From IMG/VR virus record IMGVR_UViG_2681813261_000008: a stretch of DNA of 9,143 bases. One strand, 5' to 3'. The notes under the pieces are model-generated. The model made no database searches and was not told where the DNA came from. It saw only the letters and a program-made list of their open reading frames with translations. A program made the translations under genes and the position numbers. Positions 3,731 to 9,143 of this stretch are shown here, piece after piece. The DNA is from a virus. Its lineage: Duplodnaviria > Heunggongvirae > Uroviricota > Caudoviricetes. The number at the start of each line of letters is the position of its first letter. Position 1 is the first letter of the stretch.

Positions 3731-6553
3731 ATGACGGCAGAGTACATCAGGGACTGGCAACAACCGCGCCACGCAGTGGGGCGTGAAGGAACGGGGATCC
3801 CCGCTCCTGAATCCGCGCTTTCCTCCTGGCTGGATGCCCACCGGGCAGAGAACGAGCGCCGCCAGGAAATGGCTGATGCGGCGTTCTCCGCCACGCCACT
3901 GGGCAACCTGATTAATAAAAGCCTGGACGCACAGGAAAAACAGGACAAAACCATCACACTGGCAGGAGACGCCAGAAAACAGGCACGCGGCGCGGTGGAT
4001 GAAGCCATGGCCTCGCTGCGCCTGCTGCCGTCCTATCTGCGCGATCCGCTTATTCGCCACCTCTCCTTCCTGCGCAAAAAACAGGAAGCCGATCGCCGGA
4101 AAGGCAAAAAGAGCTGGCAGGCGGAACGCTATGCACGCGGAACCCTGCGCAAAATATTCGAACGTCTGGATCGCACTGACGGACACTGGCTGACACCGGG
4201 TTATCGCTCCCTTGCCGGACGTGAACGCCTGGACGATTTGCTTTACCTGCCGCAACTCAACAAACACCAGATACAGACGCTGGCCACCATGACGGCGGCG
4301 ATGTTCAGCAGCACCTTCGAAAAACTCTGCGATGGTTTTGGCGCGACTGATGGCGAGCTGACCATGGATGTAACGCTGAAGGCGTATCAGATGCTGGCCC
4401 GCATGGCGTTACACTTACACGCCATGCCTCCGCATTATGACGCACTGACAACAGACAAAGACCGGAGGCACGAACCGGACACAGAACTGCTGCCGGGCGC
4501 AATCCTTCGCCTGACCTGTGCGGAATGGTGGAAACGCAAACTGTGGCTGTTACGTTGCGAGTGGAGAGAAGAACAACTTCGCGCCGCCTGTCTGGTTTCC
4601 AGAAAAACATCGCCCTATCTGAGCCAGGACGCGTTAAGCGAGTTTCGCGCACAGCGCGAGAAAACACGCGATTTCCTGAAAAGTTTCATGCTGGAAAATG
4701 AAGACGGGTTCACGATTGATCTCGAGACGGTGTATTACGCGGGAGTAAGTAACCCGGTTCACCGTAAGGCAGAAATGATGGCCACCATGAAGGGGCTGGA
4801 ACTTCTGGCCGAAGCCCGTGGCGACAAAGCGGTGTTTCTGACTGTCACCTGCCCGTCAAAATACCACGCCACAACGGAGAACGGTCATCCGAATCCCAAA
4901 TGGAACGGGGCCACAATGCGCGACTCCAGCGATTACCTGGTTAACACGTTTTTTGCGACGGTCCGCAAAAAACTGAACCGCGACGGCCTGCGCTGGTATG
5001 GCATCCGCACGGCGGAGCCTCACCATGACGGCACCGTGCACTGGCATATGATGGTCTTTGCTCATCCGGAAGAAATCGACACCATTGTGTCCCACACCCG
5101 CGATATTGCCATTCAGGAAGATCGTCACGAGCTGGGCGATGACATAACTCCGCGCTTTAAGGCGGAGTATGTAGACGGCTCAAAAGGCACGCCAACCAGC
5201 TACATCGCCACCTACATCGGGAAAAACCTGGACAGCCGCGCCGTGGATGGCATCGACCCGAAAACGGGCAAGCCACGCGTTGACCACGAAACCGGAAAAT
5301 CAATGGCCGAGAGCGTGGAACGCGCCATCGGCTGGGCGCGCCTTCACCGGGTCCGCCAGTTCCAGTTCTTTGGCATCCCCTCCCGCCAGGTATGGCGTGA
5401 ACTGCGCCGCCTTGCCAGCCAGATGGCACGCAACCCGGAAGGCCCGCAACGGCTGAAGGATGACGCAATGGATGCGGTTCTTGCCGCCGCTGATGCCGGA
5501 TGTTTTGCCACCTACATAGAGAAACAGGGCGGCGTACTTGTTCCACGCAAAGACTACCTGATTCGCACCGCCTACGACCTCGCCGATGAGCTGAACGATT
5601 ACGGCGAACAGAGCGTACAGATTTACGGGATCTGGTCACCACTCATCGGGGAATCCTCCCGTGTGTGCACGCATCCGGATAACTGGAAGCTGGTAAGACG
5701 CAAACCGGAAGCGGAAGACAGCGCCCGCGAAAATGGTTTTGACCTTCAGGGCGGCCCTGCCGCCCCTTGGACTCGTGGCAATAACTGTCCCCGTGTACAG
5801 GAAACGGACAACAACGGGACAGAACAGCCGGAAGAACGGCCAGCACCGTGGCCGCAGCTCCCTGACGGCGTTGATGTGGATGAATGGATGCGCTCACTGA
5901 AACGGCACGAACGCCGGGCGCTGATGCGTTCGCTTCGTGACAAACAGGCAAAAAACAGCAGTGATGAAATGCAGAGCTGGACACAGAGCCGCAAACAGCA
6001 GCGGCCTTTGCCTGATAACCACGAATTACTCGCTAAAGAATGGCGGGAGTCTGCTGAATCTCTCGGCCTGCATATCGGTGAACAACAGATGCAGCACCTG
6101 TTACGGGGCGGCAGTCTGTACGTTGACGGCAGCATCATTGCACCGCAGGGATTTGAAATTGTACGCAAACCGGATACCCGCCCGGACAGCCGAATCACGC
6201 AGCTCTGGCAGCGCCTGAGCCGTAATCATGGCGTAAGCAGCACGGAGATCCGCCATAACCCGGTCGCCAGCTATCTGACACAGCTGGGGGCATCAGACCC
6301 TGAAGCCGCCGCACGCCTGGCATCCACACTTCAGCAGGACCAGAACACCATGAAAACACCCGTTACCGTGCTTTCTGACATGCTGCGCGCCATCCGCGAC
6401 GCAGAGCACGCACAGAGAATCAGTGAAACCACTGAACGCGCCCGCCGCAAAGCAGACCTGCTGCGGGGTGGCCTGACCAGTGGAAACAAAAAACAGACAG
6501 AAACGGGACTCACGAATCCCGTAAATGAGCAAAAAACGCGCAGCGATATATGA
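3731..6553 (+). CDS. Rolling-circle replication initiator, P2 gpA-type replication endonuclease (HUH superfamily), 940 aa with a long C-terminal extension
   Basis: Long ORF containing an HUH motif (VHWHMMVF, codons 436-443) followed about 50 residues later by the paired-tyrosine motif SYIATYIGKNL (Y491 and Y495), as in phiX174/P2 gene A proteins. Sits at the end of the early operon as gene A does in P2. Weak SD, probably translationally coupled to the upstream gene. Confidence 0.85.
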   Translation: MTAEYIRDWQQPRHAVGREGTGIPAPESALSSWLDAHRAENERRQEMADAAFSATPLGNLINKSLDAQEKQDKTITLAGDARKQARGAVDEAMASLRLLPSYLRDPLIRHLSFLRKKQEADRRKGKKSWQAERYARGTLRKIFERLDRTDGHWLTPGYRSLAGRERLDDLLYLPQLNKHQIQTLATMTAAMFSSTFEKLCDGFGATDGELTMDVTLKAYQMLARMALHLHAMPPHYDALTTDKDRRHEPDTELLPGAILRLTCAEWWKRKLWLLRCEWREEQLRAACLVSRKTSPYLSQDALSEFRAQREKTRDFLKSFMLENEDGFTIDLETVYYAGVSNPVHRKAEMMATMKGLELLAEARGDKAVFLTVTCPSKYHATTENGHPNPKWNGATMRDSSDYLVNTFFATVRKKLNRDGLRWYGIRTAEPHHDGTVHWHMMVFAHPEEIDTIVSHTRDIAIQEDRHELGDDITPRFKAEYVDGSKGTPTSYIATYIGKNLDSRAVDGIDPKTGKPRVDHETGKSMAESVERAIGWARLHRVRQFQFFGIPSRQVWRELRRLASQMARNPEGPQRLKDDAMDAVLAAADAGCFATYIEKQGGVLVPRKDYLIRTAYDLADELNDYGEQSVQIYGIWSPLIGESSRVCTHPDNWKLVRRKPEAEDSARENGFDLQGGPAAPWTRGNNCPRVQETDNNGTEQPEERPAPWPQLPDGVDVDEWMRSLKRHERRALMRSLRDKQAKNSSDEMQSWTQSRKQQRPLPDNHELLAKEWRESAESLGLHIGEQQMQHLLRGGSLYVDGSIIAPQGFEIVRKPDTRPDSRITQLWQRLSRNHGVSSTEIRHNPVASYLTQLGASDPEAAARLASTLQQDQNTMKTPVTVLSDMLRAIRDAEHAQRISETTERARRKADLLRGGLTSGNKKQTETGLTNPVNEQKTRSDI

Positions 6554-6598
6554 AGCGCGCACAAAACAGGCAAAAACGGGATTTCAGAATCCCGTAAA
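6501..6598. repeat. Two copies of a 25-bp palindromic element, AAACGGGA-N9-TCCCGTAAA (6501-6525 and 6574-6598); candidate parC-like centromere or ParR operator, alternatively an origin element
   Basis: Copy 1 AAACGGGACTCACGAATCCCGTAAA lies in the last codons of gpA. Copy 2 AAACGGGATTTCAGAATCCCGTAAA lies in the gpA-parM intergenic region, overlapping a possible -35 (TTTCAG 6582-6587, 17-bp spacer, ATTAAT 6605-6610). Arms are identical; the spacers differ at 4 positions. Confidence 0.45.
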
Positions 6599-6629
6599 CG
6601 ATTAATTAATCAACATAAGGAAAAGCGAC

Positions 6630-7589
6630 ATGAAAATTTGTATCGACGACGGCTCCACCAACATCAAGCTGGCATGGACTGAGAACGGCGAACGCCGCAA
6701 CGCCATCAGCCCGAACAGCTTCAAGTCGGAATGGTCTGCGCCGTTCGGTGGCATGCAGCCCGCGAACTACATGCTTGATGGCGTGCGCTATGGTTTTGAT
6801 CCGGTCAGCGATCGCTTTGTCCAGACAACCGACACGCAATACCAGTACAGCGATGTAAATGTCATTGCCATTCATCACGCGCTGGTCAAATCAGGCATCA
6901 CGCCACAGGAGGTGGATGTGGTTGTCACCCTGCCACTGAGCGAGTATTTCGACACAAACGCACAGCCGGACATGGCCAACATCAACCGCAAAAAAGCGAA
7001 CGTTATGCGCCCGGTGGAGTACCAGAACGGCGAAGCATTCACTATCCGTAACGTGCGGGTTATGCCTGAATCCATTCCGGCTGGCTTTAAGGCACTGGCT
7101 GACATGAGTCCGTTTGAATCCCTGCTGATTGTGGATTTGGGCGGAACCACGCTGGATGTGGCAAAGGTTCAGGGGCAACTGGCAGGTATCAGCCAGGTGT
7201 TTTGCGATCCACACGTAGGCGTTTCTCTGATGGCCGATGCCGTACTGTCGGTGATGGCCACTAACGGTATGCGCACCAGTCACCACATCGCCAATACCAT
7301 TATCGAACATCGCCATGATGAAGCCTGGCTGCGCCAGCACATCCACAATGACGCGCATTACGCCAGCCTGATGGCGGTTATTCGTGAAAAGGAAGAAACA
7401 CTGAAACAACGCGTGATCCGCGCGCTGGCGGGTTTTTCGGGTTACGGGCGGGTGATGGTTGTCGGTGGAGGGGCGGAGATTGTGGCACCCGCTATCCGCG
7501 AAGCCTGCGGAGTTAATGCGACTTTCATCGCGGACGGGGTGCCACAGTTTGCTCTGGTTAATGGGCTGTACGCAATGGACAAGGAGTAA
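6630..7589 (+). CDS. parM: ParM/StbA-family actin-like segregation ATPase (type II partition), 319 aa
   Basis: N-terminus [31 protein letters not shown] is near-identical in pattern to plasmid R1 ParM as recalled from memory ([21 protein letters not shown]...HISPNSF). DDGSTNIK phosphate-1 motif, [11 protein letters not shown] phosphate-2-like motif and VVGGGAEI adenosine motif are present. SD AAGGA 8 nt upstream. Confidence 0.88.
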   Translation: [319 protein letters not shown]

Positions 7590-7593
7590 ACCA

Positions 7594-7905
7594 ATGACGA
7601 CACCAACCAGACGGATAAGTTTCTATCTGAAGCCTGCGGCCGTCAAGAACGAAAGCGAAGCATGCGCCTGGCTGGGCAGCCTTACACCAGAAGCCCGCAA
7701 AAGCGGCCAACGCGTGGCTTTTCTGGCCGGGCTGGCACTTCTGAAAATGAATCCAGCAGAGGCTTACCGACTGGCTGCATGGGCTGACGATGAGGCGTTA
7801 TCGGTGACACAAACCAGGACAGAACGCCCCGTGCCACAGCCAGTACCAACCGCACAGATAACCAGTCAGATAGCAGGGAATATCCGGGCATTATTTCCTG
7901 AATGA
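7594..7905 (+). CDS. parR: ParR/StbB-like centromere-binding adaptor (about 103 aa)
   Basis: Starts 5 nt after the parM stop with SD AAGGAG (7581-7585). RISFYLKPAAVKNESEACAWLGSLTPEARKSGQRVAFLAGLALL parallels the R1 ParR N-terminal ribbon-helix-helix region as recalled (TIAFKLNPDV...LDSIPQGERSRLNRAALTAGLALY). C-terminal IRALFPE resembles ILRSLFPKE. Track ORF 7459..7905 is an N-terminally over-extended version. Confidence 0.75.
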   Translation: MTTPTRRISFYLKPAAVKNESEACAWLGSLTPEARKSGQRVAFLAGLALLKMNPAEAYRLAAWADDEALSVTQTRTERPVPQPVPTAQITSQIAGNIRALFPE

Positions 7906-7965: not shown

Positions 7966-8490
7966 ATGAAAAAATACGAATACATGCTAATGAAAGAAGC
8001 ACTGCGGGCTGGTCTGGCTCCCTGTCCTGTATCCGTAGAAGCTGTTGTTGGGAACACGATTTTCCGAACGCTGCGAAATCGCGTATCCGTGAAGATGGTT
8101 CACCAACCACCCAAATCTACCAGCATGATCTATCTGCCGCTGCCCGAGGCTATCAAACTTATGCGTTCGCTGAAATTTGCGATTTGGATGCAGACACAAA
8201 TCAACAAAGCGGTGCAAAACACCTTCGTTAAGAGACTAATACCGGAGCTTGCTGCCAGATGTGCAAAATGTACCAGACCCGCACTTCAATTTGATCTGTC
8301 ATTGATTCAACAAGCTACGGAGGCAGAACTGTACCGCCTGTCACCTATCCGTGATGCTCACACGGAAGCATCAGAAATGTTCCGGCTCATGTTTCAATTT
8401 AATTTTGCCGTTCGACGCACACGCGTTCAGGTCAATCGCATGATGCAGGAGCAGGAAGAGTTAACACAGTACAAAGGGGGCAGCCAGTGA
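7966..8490 (+). CDS. Hypothetical protein (174 aa), first gene of a three-gene cluster
   Basis: ORF with SD GAGGA (7954-7958) 7 nt upstream. No family recognised. Stop overlaps the next start (GTGA at 8487-8490). Confidence 0.55.
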   Translation: MKKYEYMLMKEALRAGLAPCPVSVEAVVGNTIFRTLRNRVSVKMVHQPPKSTSMIYLPLPEAIKLMRSLKFAIWMQTQINKAVQNTFVKRLIPELAARCAKCTRPALQFDLSLIQQATEAELYRLSPIRDAHTEASEMFRLMFQFNFAVRRTRVQVNRMMQEQEELTQYKGGSQ

Positions 8491-8726
8491 GTAATTCAGC
8501 ACGACTACAGCTTGGTTTTTCACCGCTATCAAAAACCATCGTATTGGCAAAAATGCGTGACTTAGGAGACGGAACAAAACGCCGCGTAGGAAATGATCGC
8601 GGTCGCGATGTAACCAACGAGGCCGCTCAACTCGTTTGGCATCTAGTCATGGCAGAAGGCGGTGAAATTAATTGGGAGCTGGATGATGGTTCTCGTATGA
8701 TTTTGAGGGCCGAGAAGAGTAAATAG
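8487..8726 (+). CDS. Hypothetical protein (79 aa), GTG start coupled to the upstream gene
   Basis: GTG at 8487 overlapping the upstream stop, preceded by SD AAGGGGG (8474-8480). No recognisable motif. Confidence 0.45.
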   Translation: MSNSARLQLGFSPLSKTIVLAKMRDLGDGTKRRVGNDRGRDVTNEAAQLVWHLVMAEGGEINWELDDGSRMILRAEKSK

Positions 8727-8740
8727 CTCAAGGGGGATTA

Positions 8741-8926
8741 ATGCTAAATGATGATGAAGAAGAGCTGCTTATGCAGGAATGGTCGCTCGGTGATTATGAT
8801 AATGGTGAAAATGGGTGCCCGCATTGTGGCCGTTATCGTTTATGTATCTGCCAGAATGGAAAACACAGATGTGAAAAGTGCAATTGGTCTCCGGAACTTA
8901 ATGACTACGTGCCGATCGAGTGGTAG
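8741..8926 (+). CDS. Small acidic cysteine-rich protein (61 aa), putative zinc-ribbon
   Basis: ATG at 8741 preceded by AGGGGG (8731-8736). Six cysteines as CPHC-x5-CIC-x6-CEKC, with acidic N- and C-termini. Preferred over the overlapping 8748..8942 frame, whose product looks less protein-like. Confidence 0.45.
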   Translation: MLNDDEEELLMQEWSLGDYDNGENGCPHCGRYRLCICQNGKHRCEKCNWSPELNDYVPIEW

Positions 8927-8966
8927 AGGTAAGTCACACTAGGTGTTTTTTAGTTGATTTTATAAA

Positions 8967-8993
8967 TGCACAATAGTGCACAAATTTGCACAA
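8967..8993. repeat. Three TGCACAA repeats at exact 10-bp phasing (8967-8973, 8977-8983, 8987-8993) in an AT-rich tract; iteron-like
   Basis: Read directly: TGCACAATAG TGCACAAATT TGCACAATTT. One helical turn apart, as expected for a protein-binding iteron array. Confidence 0.5.
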
Positions 8994-9036
8994 TTTTTTT
9001 GAACGACTTTTTGCCCTTCCGGCCCGCGTGGCGGCT

Positions 9037-9090
9037 GGATCCGTCAAGGATCCGTGCATGCACAAAAAAACGCGTTTTTTCTGCGCGCAG
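9037..9090. repeat. Palindrome cluster: tandem GGATCCGT x2 (9037-9044, 9048-9055), GTGCATGCAC (9054-9063), AAAAAACGCGTTTTTT (9065-9080), CTGCGCGCAG (9081-9090)
   Basis: All are perfect palindromes or exact direct repeats read from the sequence, packed into about 55 bp immediately left of the IS1 end. Confidence 0.5.
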
Positions 9091-9095
9091 GTGAC

Positions 9096-9143
9096 GGTGA
9101 TGCTGCCAACTTACTGATTTAGTGTATGATGGTGTTTTTGAGG
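9096..9143 (+). mobile_element. IS1 left terminal inverted repeat and first 48 bp of the element; IS1 continues beyond the window
   Basis: GGTGATGCTGCCAACTTACTGATTTAGTGTATGATGGTGTTTTTGAGG matches the IS1 IRL (GGTGATGCTGCCAACTTACTGAT) and the sequence that follows it, as recalled from memory. insA would begin just beyond the window edge. Confidence 0.8.

What the first reader, a model, noticed from the sequence alone, without database searches (positions are those of the whole stretch)
8950..9095. Iteron-like and palindrome-dense non-coding region at the right end
Within about 150 bp there are three 10-bp-phased TGCACAA repeats, a tandem GGATCCGT repeat with 11-bp period, and three adjacent perfect palindromes. 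This density is not explained by any coding feature and resembles iteron-type origins, centromeres or recombination sites. It directly abuts the IS1 end, so the native context to the right is lost.
Basis: seen in the sequence. Interest (0 to 1): 0.55.

Follow-up and report, generated by a model that had tools for sequence, protein, structure and literature searches.

The report
IS1-cut phage DNA-packaging (cos) site
The repeat-dense stretch is one arm of the cos site, the signal a P2-family prophage uses to cut and package its DNA; an IS1 element has inserted into the cut site itself, so this is an ordinary, known kind of element, not a replication origin or centromere.

Summary
There are three TGCACAA repeats at 10-bp spacing (8967-8993), a fourth copy at 9059, a GGATCCGT tandem (9037-9055) and three small palindromes. 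IS1 begins at 9096.

The interpretation as an origin or centromere is not supported. The window is the early region of a P88-like (Xuanwuvirus) P2-family prophage. In an IS1-free homologue the stretch runs on into about 330 bp of non-coding DNA and then the portal gene, which is where P2-family phages keep cos.

I anchored eleven sequences on the 19-nt cohesive-end sequence: P2, P4, 186, Klebsiella and Enterobacter P2-like phages, a P4-like satellite and P88-like phages. All share one layout:
- three phased TGCA-type repeats near -123, -113 and -103;
- a fourth repeat near -30;
- a GCGCGCA-type flank just before the cut.

The rest of the arm has diverged to background identity.

The window keeps only GGTGAC(GG) of the predicted 19-mer GGTGACGGGGGAACAGCCC, so IS1 sits inside the cleavage site and probably disables packaging.

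The GGATCCGT tandem is lineage-specific. Two of the three palindromes are perfect only because of SNPs private to this window.

I infer, without direct evidence, that the repeats are recognition sites for the terminase small subunit. Verdict: a new member of a known kind, of low to moderate interest.

The parts
8967..8993 (+). Distal array of three TGCACAA repeats at 10-bp phasing, at -123, -113 and -103 from the predicted top-strand cut. It forms the left boundary of the conserved cos block.
   Evidence: Searches show the repeats and that they exceed chance. In the anchored comparison, P88-like phages, phiT5282H and the KD602 satellite have them at the same positions. P2, P4 and 186 have TGCA repeats at -123/-124, -111 and -101. 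In one search, 0 of 200,000 shuffles matched all four sites. In one search, homology in most of the listed rows (a spread of 60 from 1148 E. coli genomes) starts at the first repeat.
8994..9000 (+). T7 tract immediately after the distal repeats.
   Evidence: It is conserved as a T-rich run in the P88-like, Enterobacter and Klebsiella variants and in the satellite, but not in P2.
9001..9054 (+). Variable, G+C-rich spacer of the cos arm. It includes the GGATCCGT tandem (9037-9044 and 9048-9055), which carries two Dam GATC sites.
   Evidence: Its length is conserved: the distance from the triple to the 19-mer is 121-124 nt in 95 of 104 unique segments. Its sequence is not conserved, and the tandem is missing in phiT5282H, the Klebsiella phages and the KD602 satellite.
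9059..9065 (+). Proximal fourth TGCACAA repeat at -31, followed by an A7 run. It is the counterpart of TGCATTAAAACC at -29 in P2, P4 and 186.
   Evidence: Among the 95 unique IMG/VR segments that have a recognisable 19-mer, the proximal TGCAC lies at -31 in 81; it is 72 bp from the third distal repeat in both the P88 type and the P2 type.
9065..9080 (+). AAAAAACG/CGTTTTTT palindrome. The A and T tracts are conserved; the perfect dyad is not.
   Evidence: inverted repeat I9. Homologues read AAAAAACGCGCTTTTT or non-palindromic sequence.
9082..9089 (+). TGCGCGCA, the conserved GCGCGCA flank directly before the predicted top-strand nick.
   Evidence: It is near-invariant in P88-type, Klebsiella-type and satellite variants. 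In the Klebsiella phages a GCGCGC element flanks both ends of the 19-mer.
9090..9097 (+). GGTGAC(GG), the first 6-8 nt of the predicted 19-nt cohesive-end sequence GGTGACGGGGGAACAGCCC (cosN). The rest is cut off by IS1.
   Evidence: IS1-free homologues continue GGTGACGGGGGAACAGCCC (L001 12604-12622; phiT5282H; satellite). This is 13/19 identical to the P2 cohesive end GGCGAGGCGGGGAAAGCAC annotated in NC_001895. Native homology ends at 9097.
9096..9143 (+). Terminal inverted repeat and first bases of an IS1 element, inserted inside cosN.
   Evidence: 100% identity to at least 5000 plasmid records, and adjacent to an IS1B-family transposase gene in R100.
3731..6553 (+). Context: the gpA replication initiator (Phage_GPA) of the P2-like prophage.
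   Evidence: Pfam E = 6.6e-131; annotated as replication endonuclease in the homologue.
6630..7905 (+). Context: a ParM gene (6630-7589) and a ParR-like gene (7594-7905). These are cargo lying between gpA and cos.
   Evidence: StbA_N/ParM E = 2.7e-82; Plasmid_stab_B E = 2e-23. The cassette has its own 28-nt repeats at 6501-6528 and 6574-6601.

Best explanation
Window 8967-9097 is the gpA-side (right-end) arm of the cos site of a P88-like (Xuanwuvirus), P2-family prophage, together with the first 6-8 bases of its cleavage sequence. cos is the cis-acting signal at which the phage terminase (gpM small subunit, gpP large subunit) recognises the genome and makes two nicks 19 nt apart before packaging.

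Proposed mechanism:
1. The small terminase subunit recognises four TGCACAA elements. Three are helically phased at -123, -113 and -103. One is at -31, that is 72 bp or about 7 helical turns further on. A/T tracts flank each element.
2. The length-conserved but sequence-variable spacer lets the DNA wrap or loop, so the complex is positioned over the GCGCGCA | GGTGACGGGGGAACAGCCC junction.
3. The large subunit nicks there.

In this window an IS1 element has inserted 6-8 bp into the 19-mer. That separates the recognition arm from most of the cleavage site and from the portal-side DNA. This copy is therefore predicted to be packaging-defective.

Shown here: identity as the cos arm by position, synteny and conserved architecture; the IS1 junction.
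Inferred: the exact nick positions, that gpM is the binding protein, and the loss of packaging.
For: **Position and synteny**
- The IS1-free homologue in E. coli FDAARGOS_943 is 98.7% identical over 610 bp. There the region is followed by about 330 bp of non-coding DNA, then the portal gene, terminase large subunit, scaffold, capsid and gpM.
- P2-family phages keep cos between the gpA-side cargo hotspot and gpQ (PMC9122126).
- Of 141 IMG/VR loci carrying the module, 131 have a portal gene within 2.5 kb downstream.

**Conserved architecture**
- In an ungapped comparison anchored on the annotated cohesive ends of P2 and 186, the start of the P4 record and the matching 19-mer elsewhere, all eleven sequences have at least two of the three phased TGCA repeats near -123, -112 and -102 (nine have all three) and a further TGCA between -38 and -29.
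- P2, P4 and 186 each match all four P88-type positions within 2 bp; 0 of 200,000 shuffles did so.
- Outside the motifs, identity between the P2 group and the P88 group is 24-38%, which is background. gpM is only 36% identical and the portal protein 47%.

**Cleavage sequence**
- The predicted 19-mer GGTGACGGGGGAACAGCCC is 13/19 identical to the P2 cohesive end.
- The Klebsiella variant GGCGAGGCGGGGGAGCAAG is 14/19 identical to P2 and sits at the same distance from the repeats.
- phiRSA1, whose ends were determined experimentally, begins GGTGAGG (PMC5694545).

**Boundary of conservation**
- The module is in 1148 of 5426 complete E. coli genomes. In most of the listed rows homology begins at the first TGCACAA, and the cargo to its left varies.

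**Satellites**
- A 12.5-kb P4-like satellite in E. coli KD602 has an Icd-like gene, a toprim primase and an ogr/delta-like gene, but no annotated terminase or portal gene. It carries the same module at 78% identity. The repeats, flank and 19-mer are kept; the spacer is changed.
- Two more such satellites are in IMG/VR. This is what is expected of a helper-specific packaging signal. P2 and P4 share only cos (PMC9122126; PMC9594776).
Against: - No experiment or read-end data here shows where P88-like virion DNA ends. The nick positions are inferred by homology.
- The one phage record that is split inside this region (LR595891, P88_4B11) is linearised at the equivalent of window 9011/9012, not at the predicted cut. 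That break has no terminal repeat and may be arbitrary, but I could not explain it.
- Sequence identity to the 55-bp P2 core is low apart from the motifs.
- No tool here can show that gpM binds the repeats. A host protein or another phage protein could be the binder.
- Ziermann and Calendar 1990, the defining paper on P2/P4 cos, is not in the library. I could not check whether the distal repeats lie inside their functional minimum.
- The far side of the IS1 is unknown, so a deletion rather than a simple insertion cannot be excluded.
Confidence: 0.88

Rival explanations
1. It is cos, but the cleavage site lies elsewhere in the region. For example it could lie in the G+C-rich spacer near 9012-9036 (TGCCCTTCCGGCCCGCGTG...), where the P88_4B11 record is linearised. 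In that case IS1 would lie outside cosN.
For: LR595891 ends ...GAACGAATTTT and starts TGCCCTTCCAGCCCGCGTGG, which is the equivalent of window 9011/9012. The spacer contains GCGTGGCGG, which resembles GGCGTGGCGG of the 186 cohesive end.
Against: The spacer sequence is not conserved in phiT5282H, the Klebsiella phages or the satellite. The 19-mer at 0 to +18 and its GCGCGCA flank are conserved and lie at the same distance from the TGCA repeats as in P2, P4 and 186. The LR595891 ends carry no terminal duplication. No other record or IMG/VR contig ends there.
Confidence: 0.06
2. It is an iteron-type replication origin or incompatibility site bound by gpA.
For: The repeats are short, direct and helically phased, in non-coding DNA downstream of the gpA operon.
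Against: The module is conserved together with the portal side, not the gpA side. Homology starts at the first repeat, and everything to its left varies. Satellites that replicate with a toprim primase and have no annotated gpA gene carry it. gpA belongs to the Phage_GPA/rolling-circle initiator family. From established knowledge of P2 and 186, not tested here, the origin of that family is a nick site inside gene A, not an iteron array.
Confidence: 0.02
3. It is the parC-type centromere of the ParM/ParR cassette encoded 1-2.5 kb upstream.
For: ParM and a ParR-like protein are encoded at 6630-7905. parC centromeres are arrays of roughly 10-11-bp phased repeats (established knowledge of plasmid R1).
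Against: In phiT5282H the repeats directly follow the gene that occupies the gpA position and its terminator, with no ParM/ParR. The Klebsiella CP052639 element and AMSCJX04 also have them with no par gene annotated between gpA and cos. The homologous TGCA repeats are present in P2, P4 and 186, where no par gene is annotated in the stretches next to cos. The par cassette has its own 28-nt palindrome-bearing repeats directly upstream of parM, at 6501-6528 and 6574-6601, which is the usual place for parC.
Confidence: 0.02
4. It is simply the 3' UTR and intrinsic terminator of the upstream cargo operon.
For: The scan reports one terminator-like hairpin, GTGCACAAATTTGCAC followed by a T-run, formed by repeats 2 and 3.
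Against: The stem has 5 pairs and arises because TGCA is self-complementary. The region's fold is no better than shuffles (z = -1.0). phiT5282H and 186 have separate, stronger terminators upstream of the repeats (t95b). P2 lacks the T-run. Conservation of repeat positions relative to the cut site is not explained by termination. A minor, additional terminator role is not excluded.
Confidence: 0.02

Closest known systems
cos site of phages P2 and 186 and satellite P4 (19-nt 5' cohesive ends; 55-bp conserved core of Ziermann and Calendar 1990)
   Same: It occupies the same genomic position, between the gpA-side cargo and the portal gene. It has a G-rich 19-mer that is 13/19 identical to P2's. 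It has TGCA-type repeats at the same distances from the cut: about -123, -112 and -102, and about -30. It is shared with satellites.
   Different: The repeat unit is TGCACAA at exactly 10-bp spacing, rather than TGCAT at 12/13- and 10-bp spacing. The GC hairpin just left of the P2 cut (CCGCCCCGTGAAGCGGGCGG) is replaced by an A7-CGCG-T6 run and GCGCGCA. The 19-mer differs at 6 positions. The cognate gpM is only 36% identical. This copy is interrupted by IS1. The ends of P88-type phages have not been determined in anything I could read.
Phage lambda cos (cosQ-cosN-cosB, with three R sites for gpNu1 and an IHF bend)
   Same: Both follow the same logic: a nicking site with partial symmetry, flanked by an array of short repeats for the small terminase subunit, spaced so that DNA bending assembles the complex (established knowledge; reviews PMC9611059 and PMC7617512).
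   Different: There is no sequence relationship. The overhang is 19 nt rather than 12 nt. Binding of the repeats by the small subunit is not demonstrated for the P2 family. From memory, not checked here, P2 packages from monomeric circles.
Phage P1 pac site (hexamer repeats containing Dam GATC sites)
   Same: Both are packaging sites with repeated short elements. The P88-type spacer carries two GATC sites 11 bp apart, and 10 of 15 diverse variants have at least one GATC there.
   Different: The GATC sites are not conserved across the family and P2 has none. There is no evidence of methylation control. P1 is a headful packager.
Plasmid R1 parC centromere and iteron origins
   Same: They also have short direct repeats phased with the DNA helix.
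   Different: This module is not linked to ParMR or to a Rep gene. It occurs without them.

Membership tests
P2-family cos (DNA packaging) site | Lies between the last early or cargo genes on the gpA side and the portal gene Q, which reads toward it. | tested here: met
   In IS1-free homologue L001 the order is cargo, module, about 330 bp, portal on the minus strand, then terminase. The arrangement is the same in phiT5282H, 3LV2017, CP052639 and AMSCJX04. 131 of 141 IMG/VR loci have a portal gene within 2.5 kb. The position of cos is stated in PMC9122126.
P2-family cos (DNA packaging) site | Has a G+C-rich 19-nt cohesive-end sequence related to GGCGAGGCGGGGAAAGCAC. | tested here: met
   Homologues carry GGTGACGGGGGAACAGCCC, 13/19 identical to P2. 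The Klebsiella variant is 14/19 identical. The window itself keeps only GGTGAC(GG) before IS1.
P2-family cos (DNA packaging) site | Has conserved flanking recognition sequence on the right-end side (the 55-bp core and beyond). | tested here: inconclusive
   The architecture is conserved: TGCA repeats at about -123, -112, -102 and -30, with 0 of 200,000 shuffles matching. Base-by-base identity to the P2 core is near background, 0.29-0.32. The defining paper could not be read.
P2-family cos (DNA packaging) site | Virion DNA ends at this site with 5' overhangs, and the site is cut by the gpM/gpP terminase. | not testable with these tools
   Terminase genes are present in the homologue, but no end-sequence or biochemical data are available. 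The LR595891 linearisation point does not coincide with the predicted cut.
P2-family cos (DNA packaging) site | Is shared with satellites that depend on the helper's terminase. | tested here: met
   The KD602 P4-like satellite and IMG/VR loci L116 and L131 carry the module. KD602 has no annotated portal or terminase gene, and L116 and L131 gave no tblastn match to either.
Iteron-type replication origin | The repeats co-occur and co-vary with the cognate initiator gene. | tested here: not met
   Conservation starts at the first repeat and extends toward the portal. The gpA-side flank varies. The module is present in satellites with a toprim primase replicon.
Iteron-type replication origin | The initiator is an iteron-binding Rep protein, and the site supports replication. 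| tested here: not met
   The 940-aa initiator matches Phage_GPA, a rolling-circle endonuclease family. Replication activity itself is not testable here.
parMRC partition centromere (parC) | The repeats occur only together with ParM/ParR and lie upstream of parM. | tested here: not met
   phiT5282H has the repeats with no par genes, and no par gene is annotated between gpA and cos in the Klebsiella CP052639 element or AMSCJX04. The P2, P4 and 186 counterparts also lack an annotated par gene next to cos. The site lies about 1 kb downstream of the ParR-like gene. A separate repeat pair sits upstream of parM.
IS1 insertion sequence (the abutting element) | The terminal inverted repeat GGTGATGCTGCCAACTTACTGAT... 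lies adjacent to IS1 transposase genes. | tested here: met
   The 48 nt are 100% identical to at least 5000 plasmid records. In R100 they lie 8 nt before an IS1B-family transposase CDS. The 9-bp target duplication cannot be checked because the other end is outside the window.

The most novel reading that the evidence does not exclude
The four TGCA-type elements form the recognition array for the terminase small subunit (gpM), a cosB equivalent that would then be defined for the whole P2 family and its satellites. Three of the elements are helically phased about 100-125 bp from the cut, and the fourth lies 72 bp further in. On this reading the repeat sequence (TGCACAA versus TGCAT) sets helper-satellite packaging specificity. 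I found no paper in the held library that describes such an array, but I could not read the 1990 paper that defined the P2/P4 cos site. A further, less likely addition is that the GATC pair in the spacer puts cos cleavage under Dam-methylation control, as at P1 pac.
Probability: 0.4. Interest if true: 0.4.

Novelty: new member of a known kind. Interest (0 to 1): 0.25.

Why it matters
As a finding it is ordinary. It explains a striking repeat cluster as a known kind of phage element, and it removes the origin and centromere readings.

It has three modest uses:
- It predicts the cohesive-end sequence and recognition arm of the P88-like (Xuanwuvirus) cos variant, which is present in about a fifth of complete E. 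coli genomes. That helps in drawing prophage and cargo-hotspot boundaries and in designing cosmids or transducing particles for these helpers.
- The position-conserved TGCA array across phages whose terminase small subunits are only 36% identical gives a concrete, testable candidate for how P2-family terminases recognise DNA, and for how satellites match their helpers.
- An IS1 inside the cleavage site is a clean natural example of a prophage disabled at the packaging step while its other genes stay intact.

Tried and rejected
- **Search for the source genome and the far IS1 junction.** An exact 38-nt junction pattern found nothing in the GTDB species representatives. No complete E. coli genome has the junction. 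Whether the insertion is simple, and its target duplication, remain unknown.
- **Physical-end evidence.** No phage record or IMG/VR contig starts or ends at the predicted cut. The single contig that seemed to end just after a triple repeat (L026) is an unrelated chance match. The break point in LR595891 is unexplained.
- **Literature.** Ziermann and Calendar 1990 is not held. Papers that cite it give only the 55-bp core and the 19-nt ends. Nothing I found describes gpM binding sites. A search for the direction of P2 packaging was not informative.
- **RNA readings.** There is no Rfam match above noise and no unusual fold.
- **Terminator reading.** Only a weak 5-bp hairpin, which follows from TGCA being self-complementary.
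- **parC reading.** Rejected because the repeats occur without par genes, and parM has its own upstream repeats.
- **Origin reading.** Rejected because of the pattern of conservation and because satellites carry the module.
- **Early false lead.** I first thought the G+C-rich spacer (GCGTGGCGG) was the cohesive end, because it resembles the 186 end. I dropped this once distant homologues showed the spacer is not conserved while the downstream 19-mer is.
- I briefly placed IS1 at 9097; the correct start is 9096 (corrected).

Full report
**1. The observation**

- TGCACAA is at 8967, 8977 and 8987, exactly 10 bp apart.
- GGATCCGT is at 9037 and 9048.
- Three adjacent palindromes follow: GCATGC at 9056-9061, AAAAAACG/CGTTTTTT at 9065-9080, and TGCGCGCA at 9082-9089.

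The triple-repeat pattern never appeared in 200 dinucleotide-preserving shuffles, even with two mismatches allowed. Four of the window's five TGCACAA copies lie within 100 bp. No ORF of 50 aa or more covers the stretch.

From 9096 the sequence is the end of IS1. It is 100% identical to at least 5000 plasmid records and, in R100, lies 8 nt upstream of an IS1B-family transposase gene.

**2. The surrounding element**

The window encodes:
- a 940-aa Phage_GPA replication initiator (3731-6553);
- ParM (6630-7589);
- a ParR-like stability protein (7594-7905);
- a DUF7446 protein (8487-8726);
- a small zinc-ribbon-like ORF (8741-8926).

One complete E. coli genome, FDAARGOS_943, holds the region without IS1 at 98.7% identity. 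Its annotation shows a complete P2-like prophage: integrase, Cox, gpA, ParM, then the region, then the portal gene, terminase large subunit, scaffold, capsid, terminase small subunit (gpM), lysis and tail genes.

What natively follows the repeats is about 330 bp of non-coding DNA and then the portal gene on the opposite strand.

P2-family phages keep their cos packaging site exactly there, between the gpA-side cargo hotspot and gpQ (PMC9122126).

**3. Related phages**

Phage records of the P88 group (Xuanwuvirus) share the block from the first TGCACAA repeat through to the portal gene at 91-97% identity. The genes to the left of the block differ.

Three more distant P2-like elements keep the repeat block in the same place, about 350-400 bp beyond the portal stop codon:
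- Enterobacter phage phiT5282H (Novemvirus);
- Klebsiella phage 3LV2017 (Reginaelenavirus);
- a 32-kb Klebsiella element.

In the Klebsiella phages the block is followed by GCGCGCA GGCGAGGCGGGGGAGCAAG CGCGCGC. That 19-mer is 14/19 identical to the P2 cohesive end GGCGAGGCGGGGAAAGCAC. The P2 end is annotated in the P2 record.

At the same position the P88-like phages, phiT5282H and another E. coli prophage have GCGCGCA GGTGACGGGGGAACAGCCC or a close variant, 13/19 identical to P2.

The window reads ...TGCGCGCA GGTGAC GG|TGATGCTGCC.... IS1 therefore lies 6-8 bp inside this 19-mer. Homology to IS1-free genomes ends at 9097.

**4. The anchored comparison**

I joined the right and left ends of P2, P4 and 186. 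I then lined up eleven sequences without gaps on the first base of the 19-mer.

| Group | TGCA-repeat starts |
|---|---|
| P2 | -123, -111, -101, -29 |
| P4 and 186 | -124, -111, -101, -35, -29 |
| P88-like phages, phiT5282H, satellite | -123, -113, -103, -31 |
| Klebsiella phages | about -121, -111, -101 (middle copy degenerate in CP052639), then -38, or -38 and -29 |
| AMSCJX04 prophage | -123, (middle copy degenerate), -103, then -37 and -31 |

The third distal repeat and the proximal repeat are 72 bp apart in both the P2 type and the P88 type.

- Each of P2, P4 and 186 matches all four P88-type positions within 2 bp. None of 200,000 shuffles of their arms did so.
- Outside the motifs, ungapped identity between the two groups is 24-38%, which is background.
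- Their gpM proteins are 36% identical and their portal proteins 47%.
- In IMG/VR, among 104 unique segments with an exact triple, 95 have a recognisable 19-mer starting 121-124 nt after the first repeat (84 of them at exactly 123). The proximal TGCAC is at -31 in 81 of those 95.

**5. Which features matter**

Across diverse variants the conserved elements are:
- the three distal TGCACAA-like repeats;
- the T-run after them;
- the length, but not the sequence, of the G+C-rich spacer;
- the proximal TGCACAA with its A-run;
- GCGCGCA;
- the 19-mer.

The GGATCCGT tandem exists only in the close P88 lineage. It is replaced by unrelated sequence in phiT5282H, the Klebsiella phages and the satellite.

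Two of the three "perfect palindromes" are perfect only here. Homologues read GCGTGC and AAAAAACGCGCTTTTT.

Only TGCGCGCA is conserved, and it directly abuts the predicted nick. In the Klebsiella variant a GCGCGC element flanks both ends of the 19-mer. This suggests a symmetric recognition element for the two nicks, but that is inference.

**6. Evidence that it is a packaging signal rather than a replication or partition site**

- The module is in 1148 of 5426 complete E. coli genomes. In most of the listed rows homology starts at the first TGCACAA, so it is conserved together with the portal side, not the gpA side.
- In E. coli KD602 the module (78% identity) sits in a 12.5-kb P4-like satellite between hpt and gcd. 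The satellite has an integrase, an Icd-like protein, a toprim primase and an ogr/delta-like protein, but no annotated portal or terminase gene. Two more such satellites are in IMG/VR. P2 and P4 are known to share only cos (PMC9122126; PMC9594776).
- phiT5282H has the repeats directly after its gpA-position gene and a separate terminator, with no ParM/ParR. This excludes a parC role.
- The par cassette in the window has its own pair of 28-nt palindrome-bearing repeats just upstream of parM.
- gpA is a rolling-circle-type initiator. From established knowledge of P2 and 186, not tested here, its origin is a nick site inside gene A, not an iteron array.
- There is no RNA family match and no unusual fold. 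The one terminator-like hit is a 5-bp hairpin, which arises because TGCA is self-complementary. In 186 the annotated operon terminator lies upstream of the repeats.

**7. Mechanism (inferred)**

The terminase small subunit gpM most likely recognises the four TGCACAA elements. Three lie on one face of the helix, and one lies about seven turns away. The length-conserved spacer and the flanking A/T tracts would allow wrapping or looping. That would place the large subunit over GCGCGCA | GGTGAC...CCC | GCG for two nicks 19 nt apart.

This parallels the R-site and IHF-bend organisation of lambda cosB (established knowledge). Which genome end enters the capsid first I could not establish.

In this window IS1 separates the arm from 11-13 nt of the 19-mer and from all the portal-side DNA. 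Even if the usual roughly 9-bp target duplication (established knowledge of IS1) restores a full 19-mer on the far side, that copy would lie about 0.8 kb from the recognition arm. The prophage is therefore predicted to be unable to cut and package its DNA. Deleting cos from P2 is known to stop packaging of the helper genome (PMC9942202).

**8. What remains open**

- The nick positions are by homology only.
- The P88_4B11 record (LR595891) is linearised inside the arm, at the equivalent of 9011/9012. It has no terminal repeat there. I regard this as arbitrary but could not prove it.
- The source genome, and therefore the other IS1 junction, was not found.
- The 1990 paper that defined the P2/P4 cos site was not readable. 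I cannot say whether the distal repeats have already been described or shown to be required.

**9. Verdict**

This is the right arm and truncated cleavage site of a P2-family cos site, in a P88-type variant that has not been characterised experimentally in anything I could read. It is a new member of a known kind, of low to moderate interest.

The most useful by-product is the position-conserved TGCA array, a testable candidate for terminase recognition across P2-like phages and their satellites.

Noticed in passing
window 6501-6528 and 6574-6601 (with parM 6630-7589 and the ParR-like gene 7594-7905): Two copies of a 28-nt repeat, each holding an ACGGGA..TCCCGT palindrome, straddle the end of gpA and the short gap before parM. 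They are a likely parC/operator for a ParM/ParR partition cassette. It is odd to find such a cassette inside an integrating P2-like prophage. P88_4B11 carries the same cassette.
   Followed up: partly
L185 (E. coli KD602, NZ_CM145715.1 3803098-3815610); cos module at L013 4001-4166: A roughly 12.5-kb P4-like satellite lies between hpt and gcd. It has two integrases, an Icd-like protein, a toprim primase, an ogr/delta-like protein and MazEF, and it encodes its own homologue of the P2-family major capsid protein. It carries the P88-type cos module. Two relatives are in IMG/VR (L116, L131).
   Followed up: partly
L162 3250-3306 (IMG/VR contig 2648501669_000002): A cos variant in which about 92 bp are missing, between the second distal TGCACAA and the proximal TGCACAA. 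This looks like a deletion mediated by the repeats and is probably a defective cos.
   Followed up: no
L005 end / L004 start (LR595891, P88_4B11); equivalent to window 9011/9012: This phage record is linearised inside the cos arm, within a T5 run, and not at the predicted cleavage site. It has no terminal repeat. I could not explain this.
   Followed up: partly
window 9037-9055 and the equivalent spacer in other cos variants: The spacer of the cos arm often contains Dam GATC sites. There are two here, 11 bp apart, and one to three in 10 of 15 diverse variants, but none in P2. This recalls the methylation-controlled P1 pac site, though the sites are not conserved across the family.
   Followed up: partly
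IMG/VR loci L111, L018, L054, L056, L057, L103, L126, L080, L124: The same exact TGCACAA triple is combined with different 19-mers: GGCGAGGCGGGGGAGCAAG, GGTGCCGGGGGAACAGCCC and GGCGACGAGGGAAGGGCGC. This suggests the recognition arm and the cleavage sequence are exchanged as separate modules.
   Followed up: partly
L001 12595-12603 (FDAARGOS_943): The only IS1-free full-length homologue among complete E. coli genomes has CTACGAGCA where nearly all others have CTGCGCGCA, directly before the predicted nick. This may be a weakened cleavage flank.
   Followed up: no
L127 (IMG/VR), cos module at about 7265 of the oriented locus: This locus carries the module but has no portal gene within 2.5 kb downstream, and it does not have the KD602-type satellite genes nearby. 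It may hold cargo between cos and the portal gene, or be a different kind of satellite.
   Followed up: no
L003 2425-2481 (P2 right end): In P2 the annotated start sites of the old-tin mRNA lie about 25-55 bp from the distal TGCAT repeats. The cargo promoter and the cos arm therefore overlap there.
   Followed up: no
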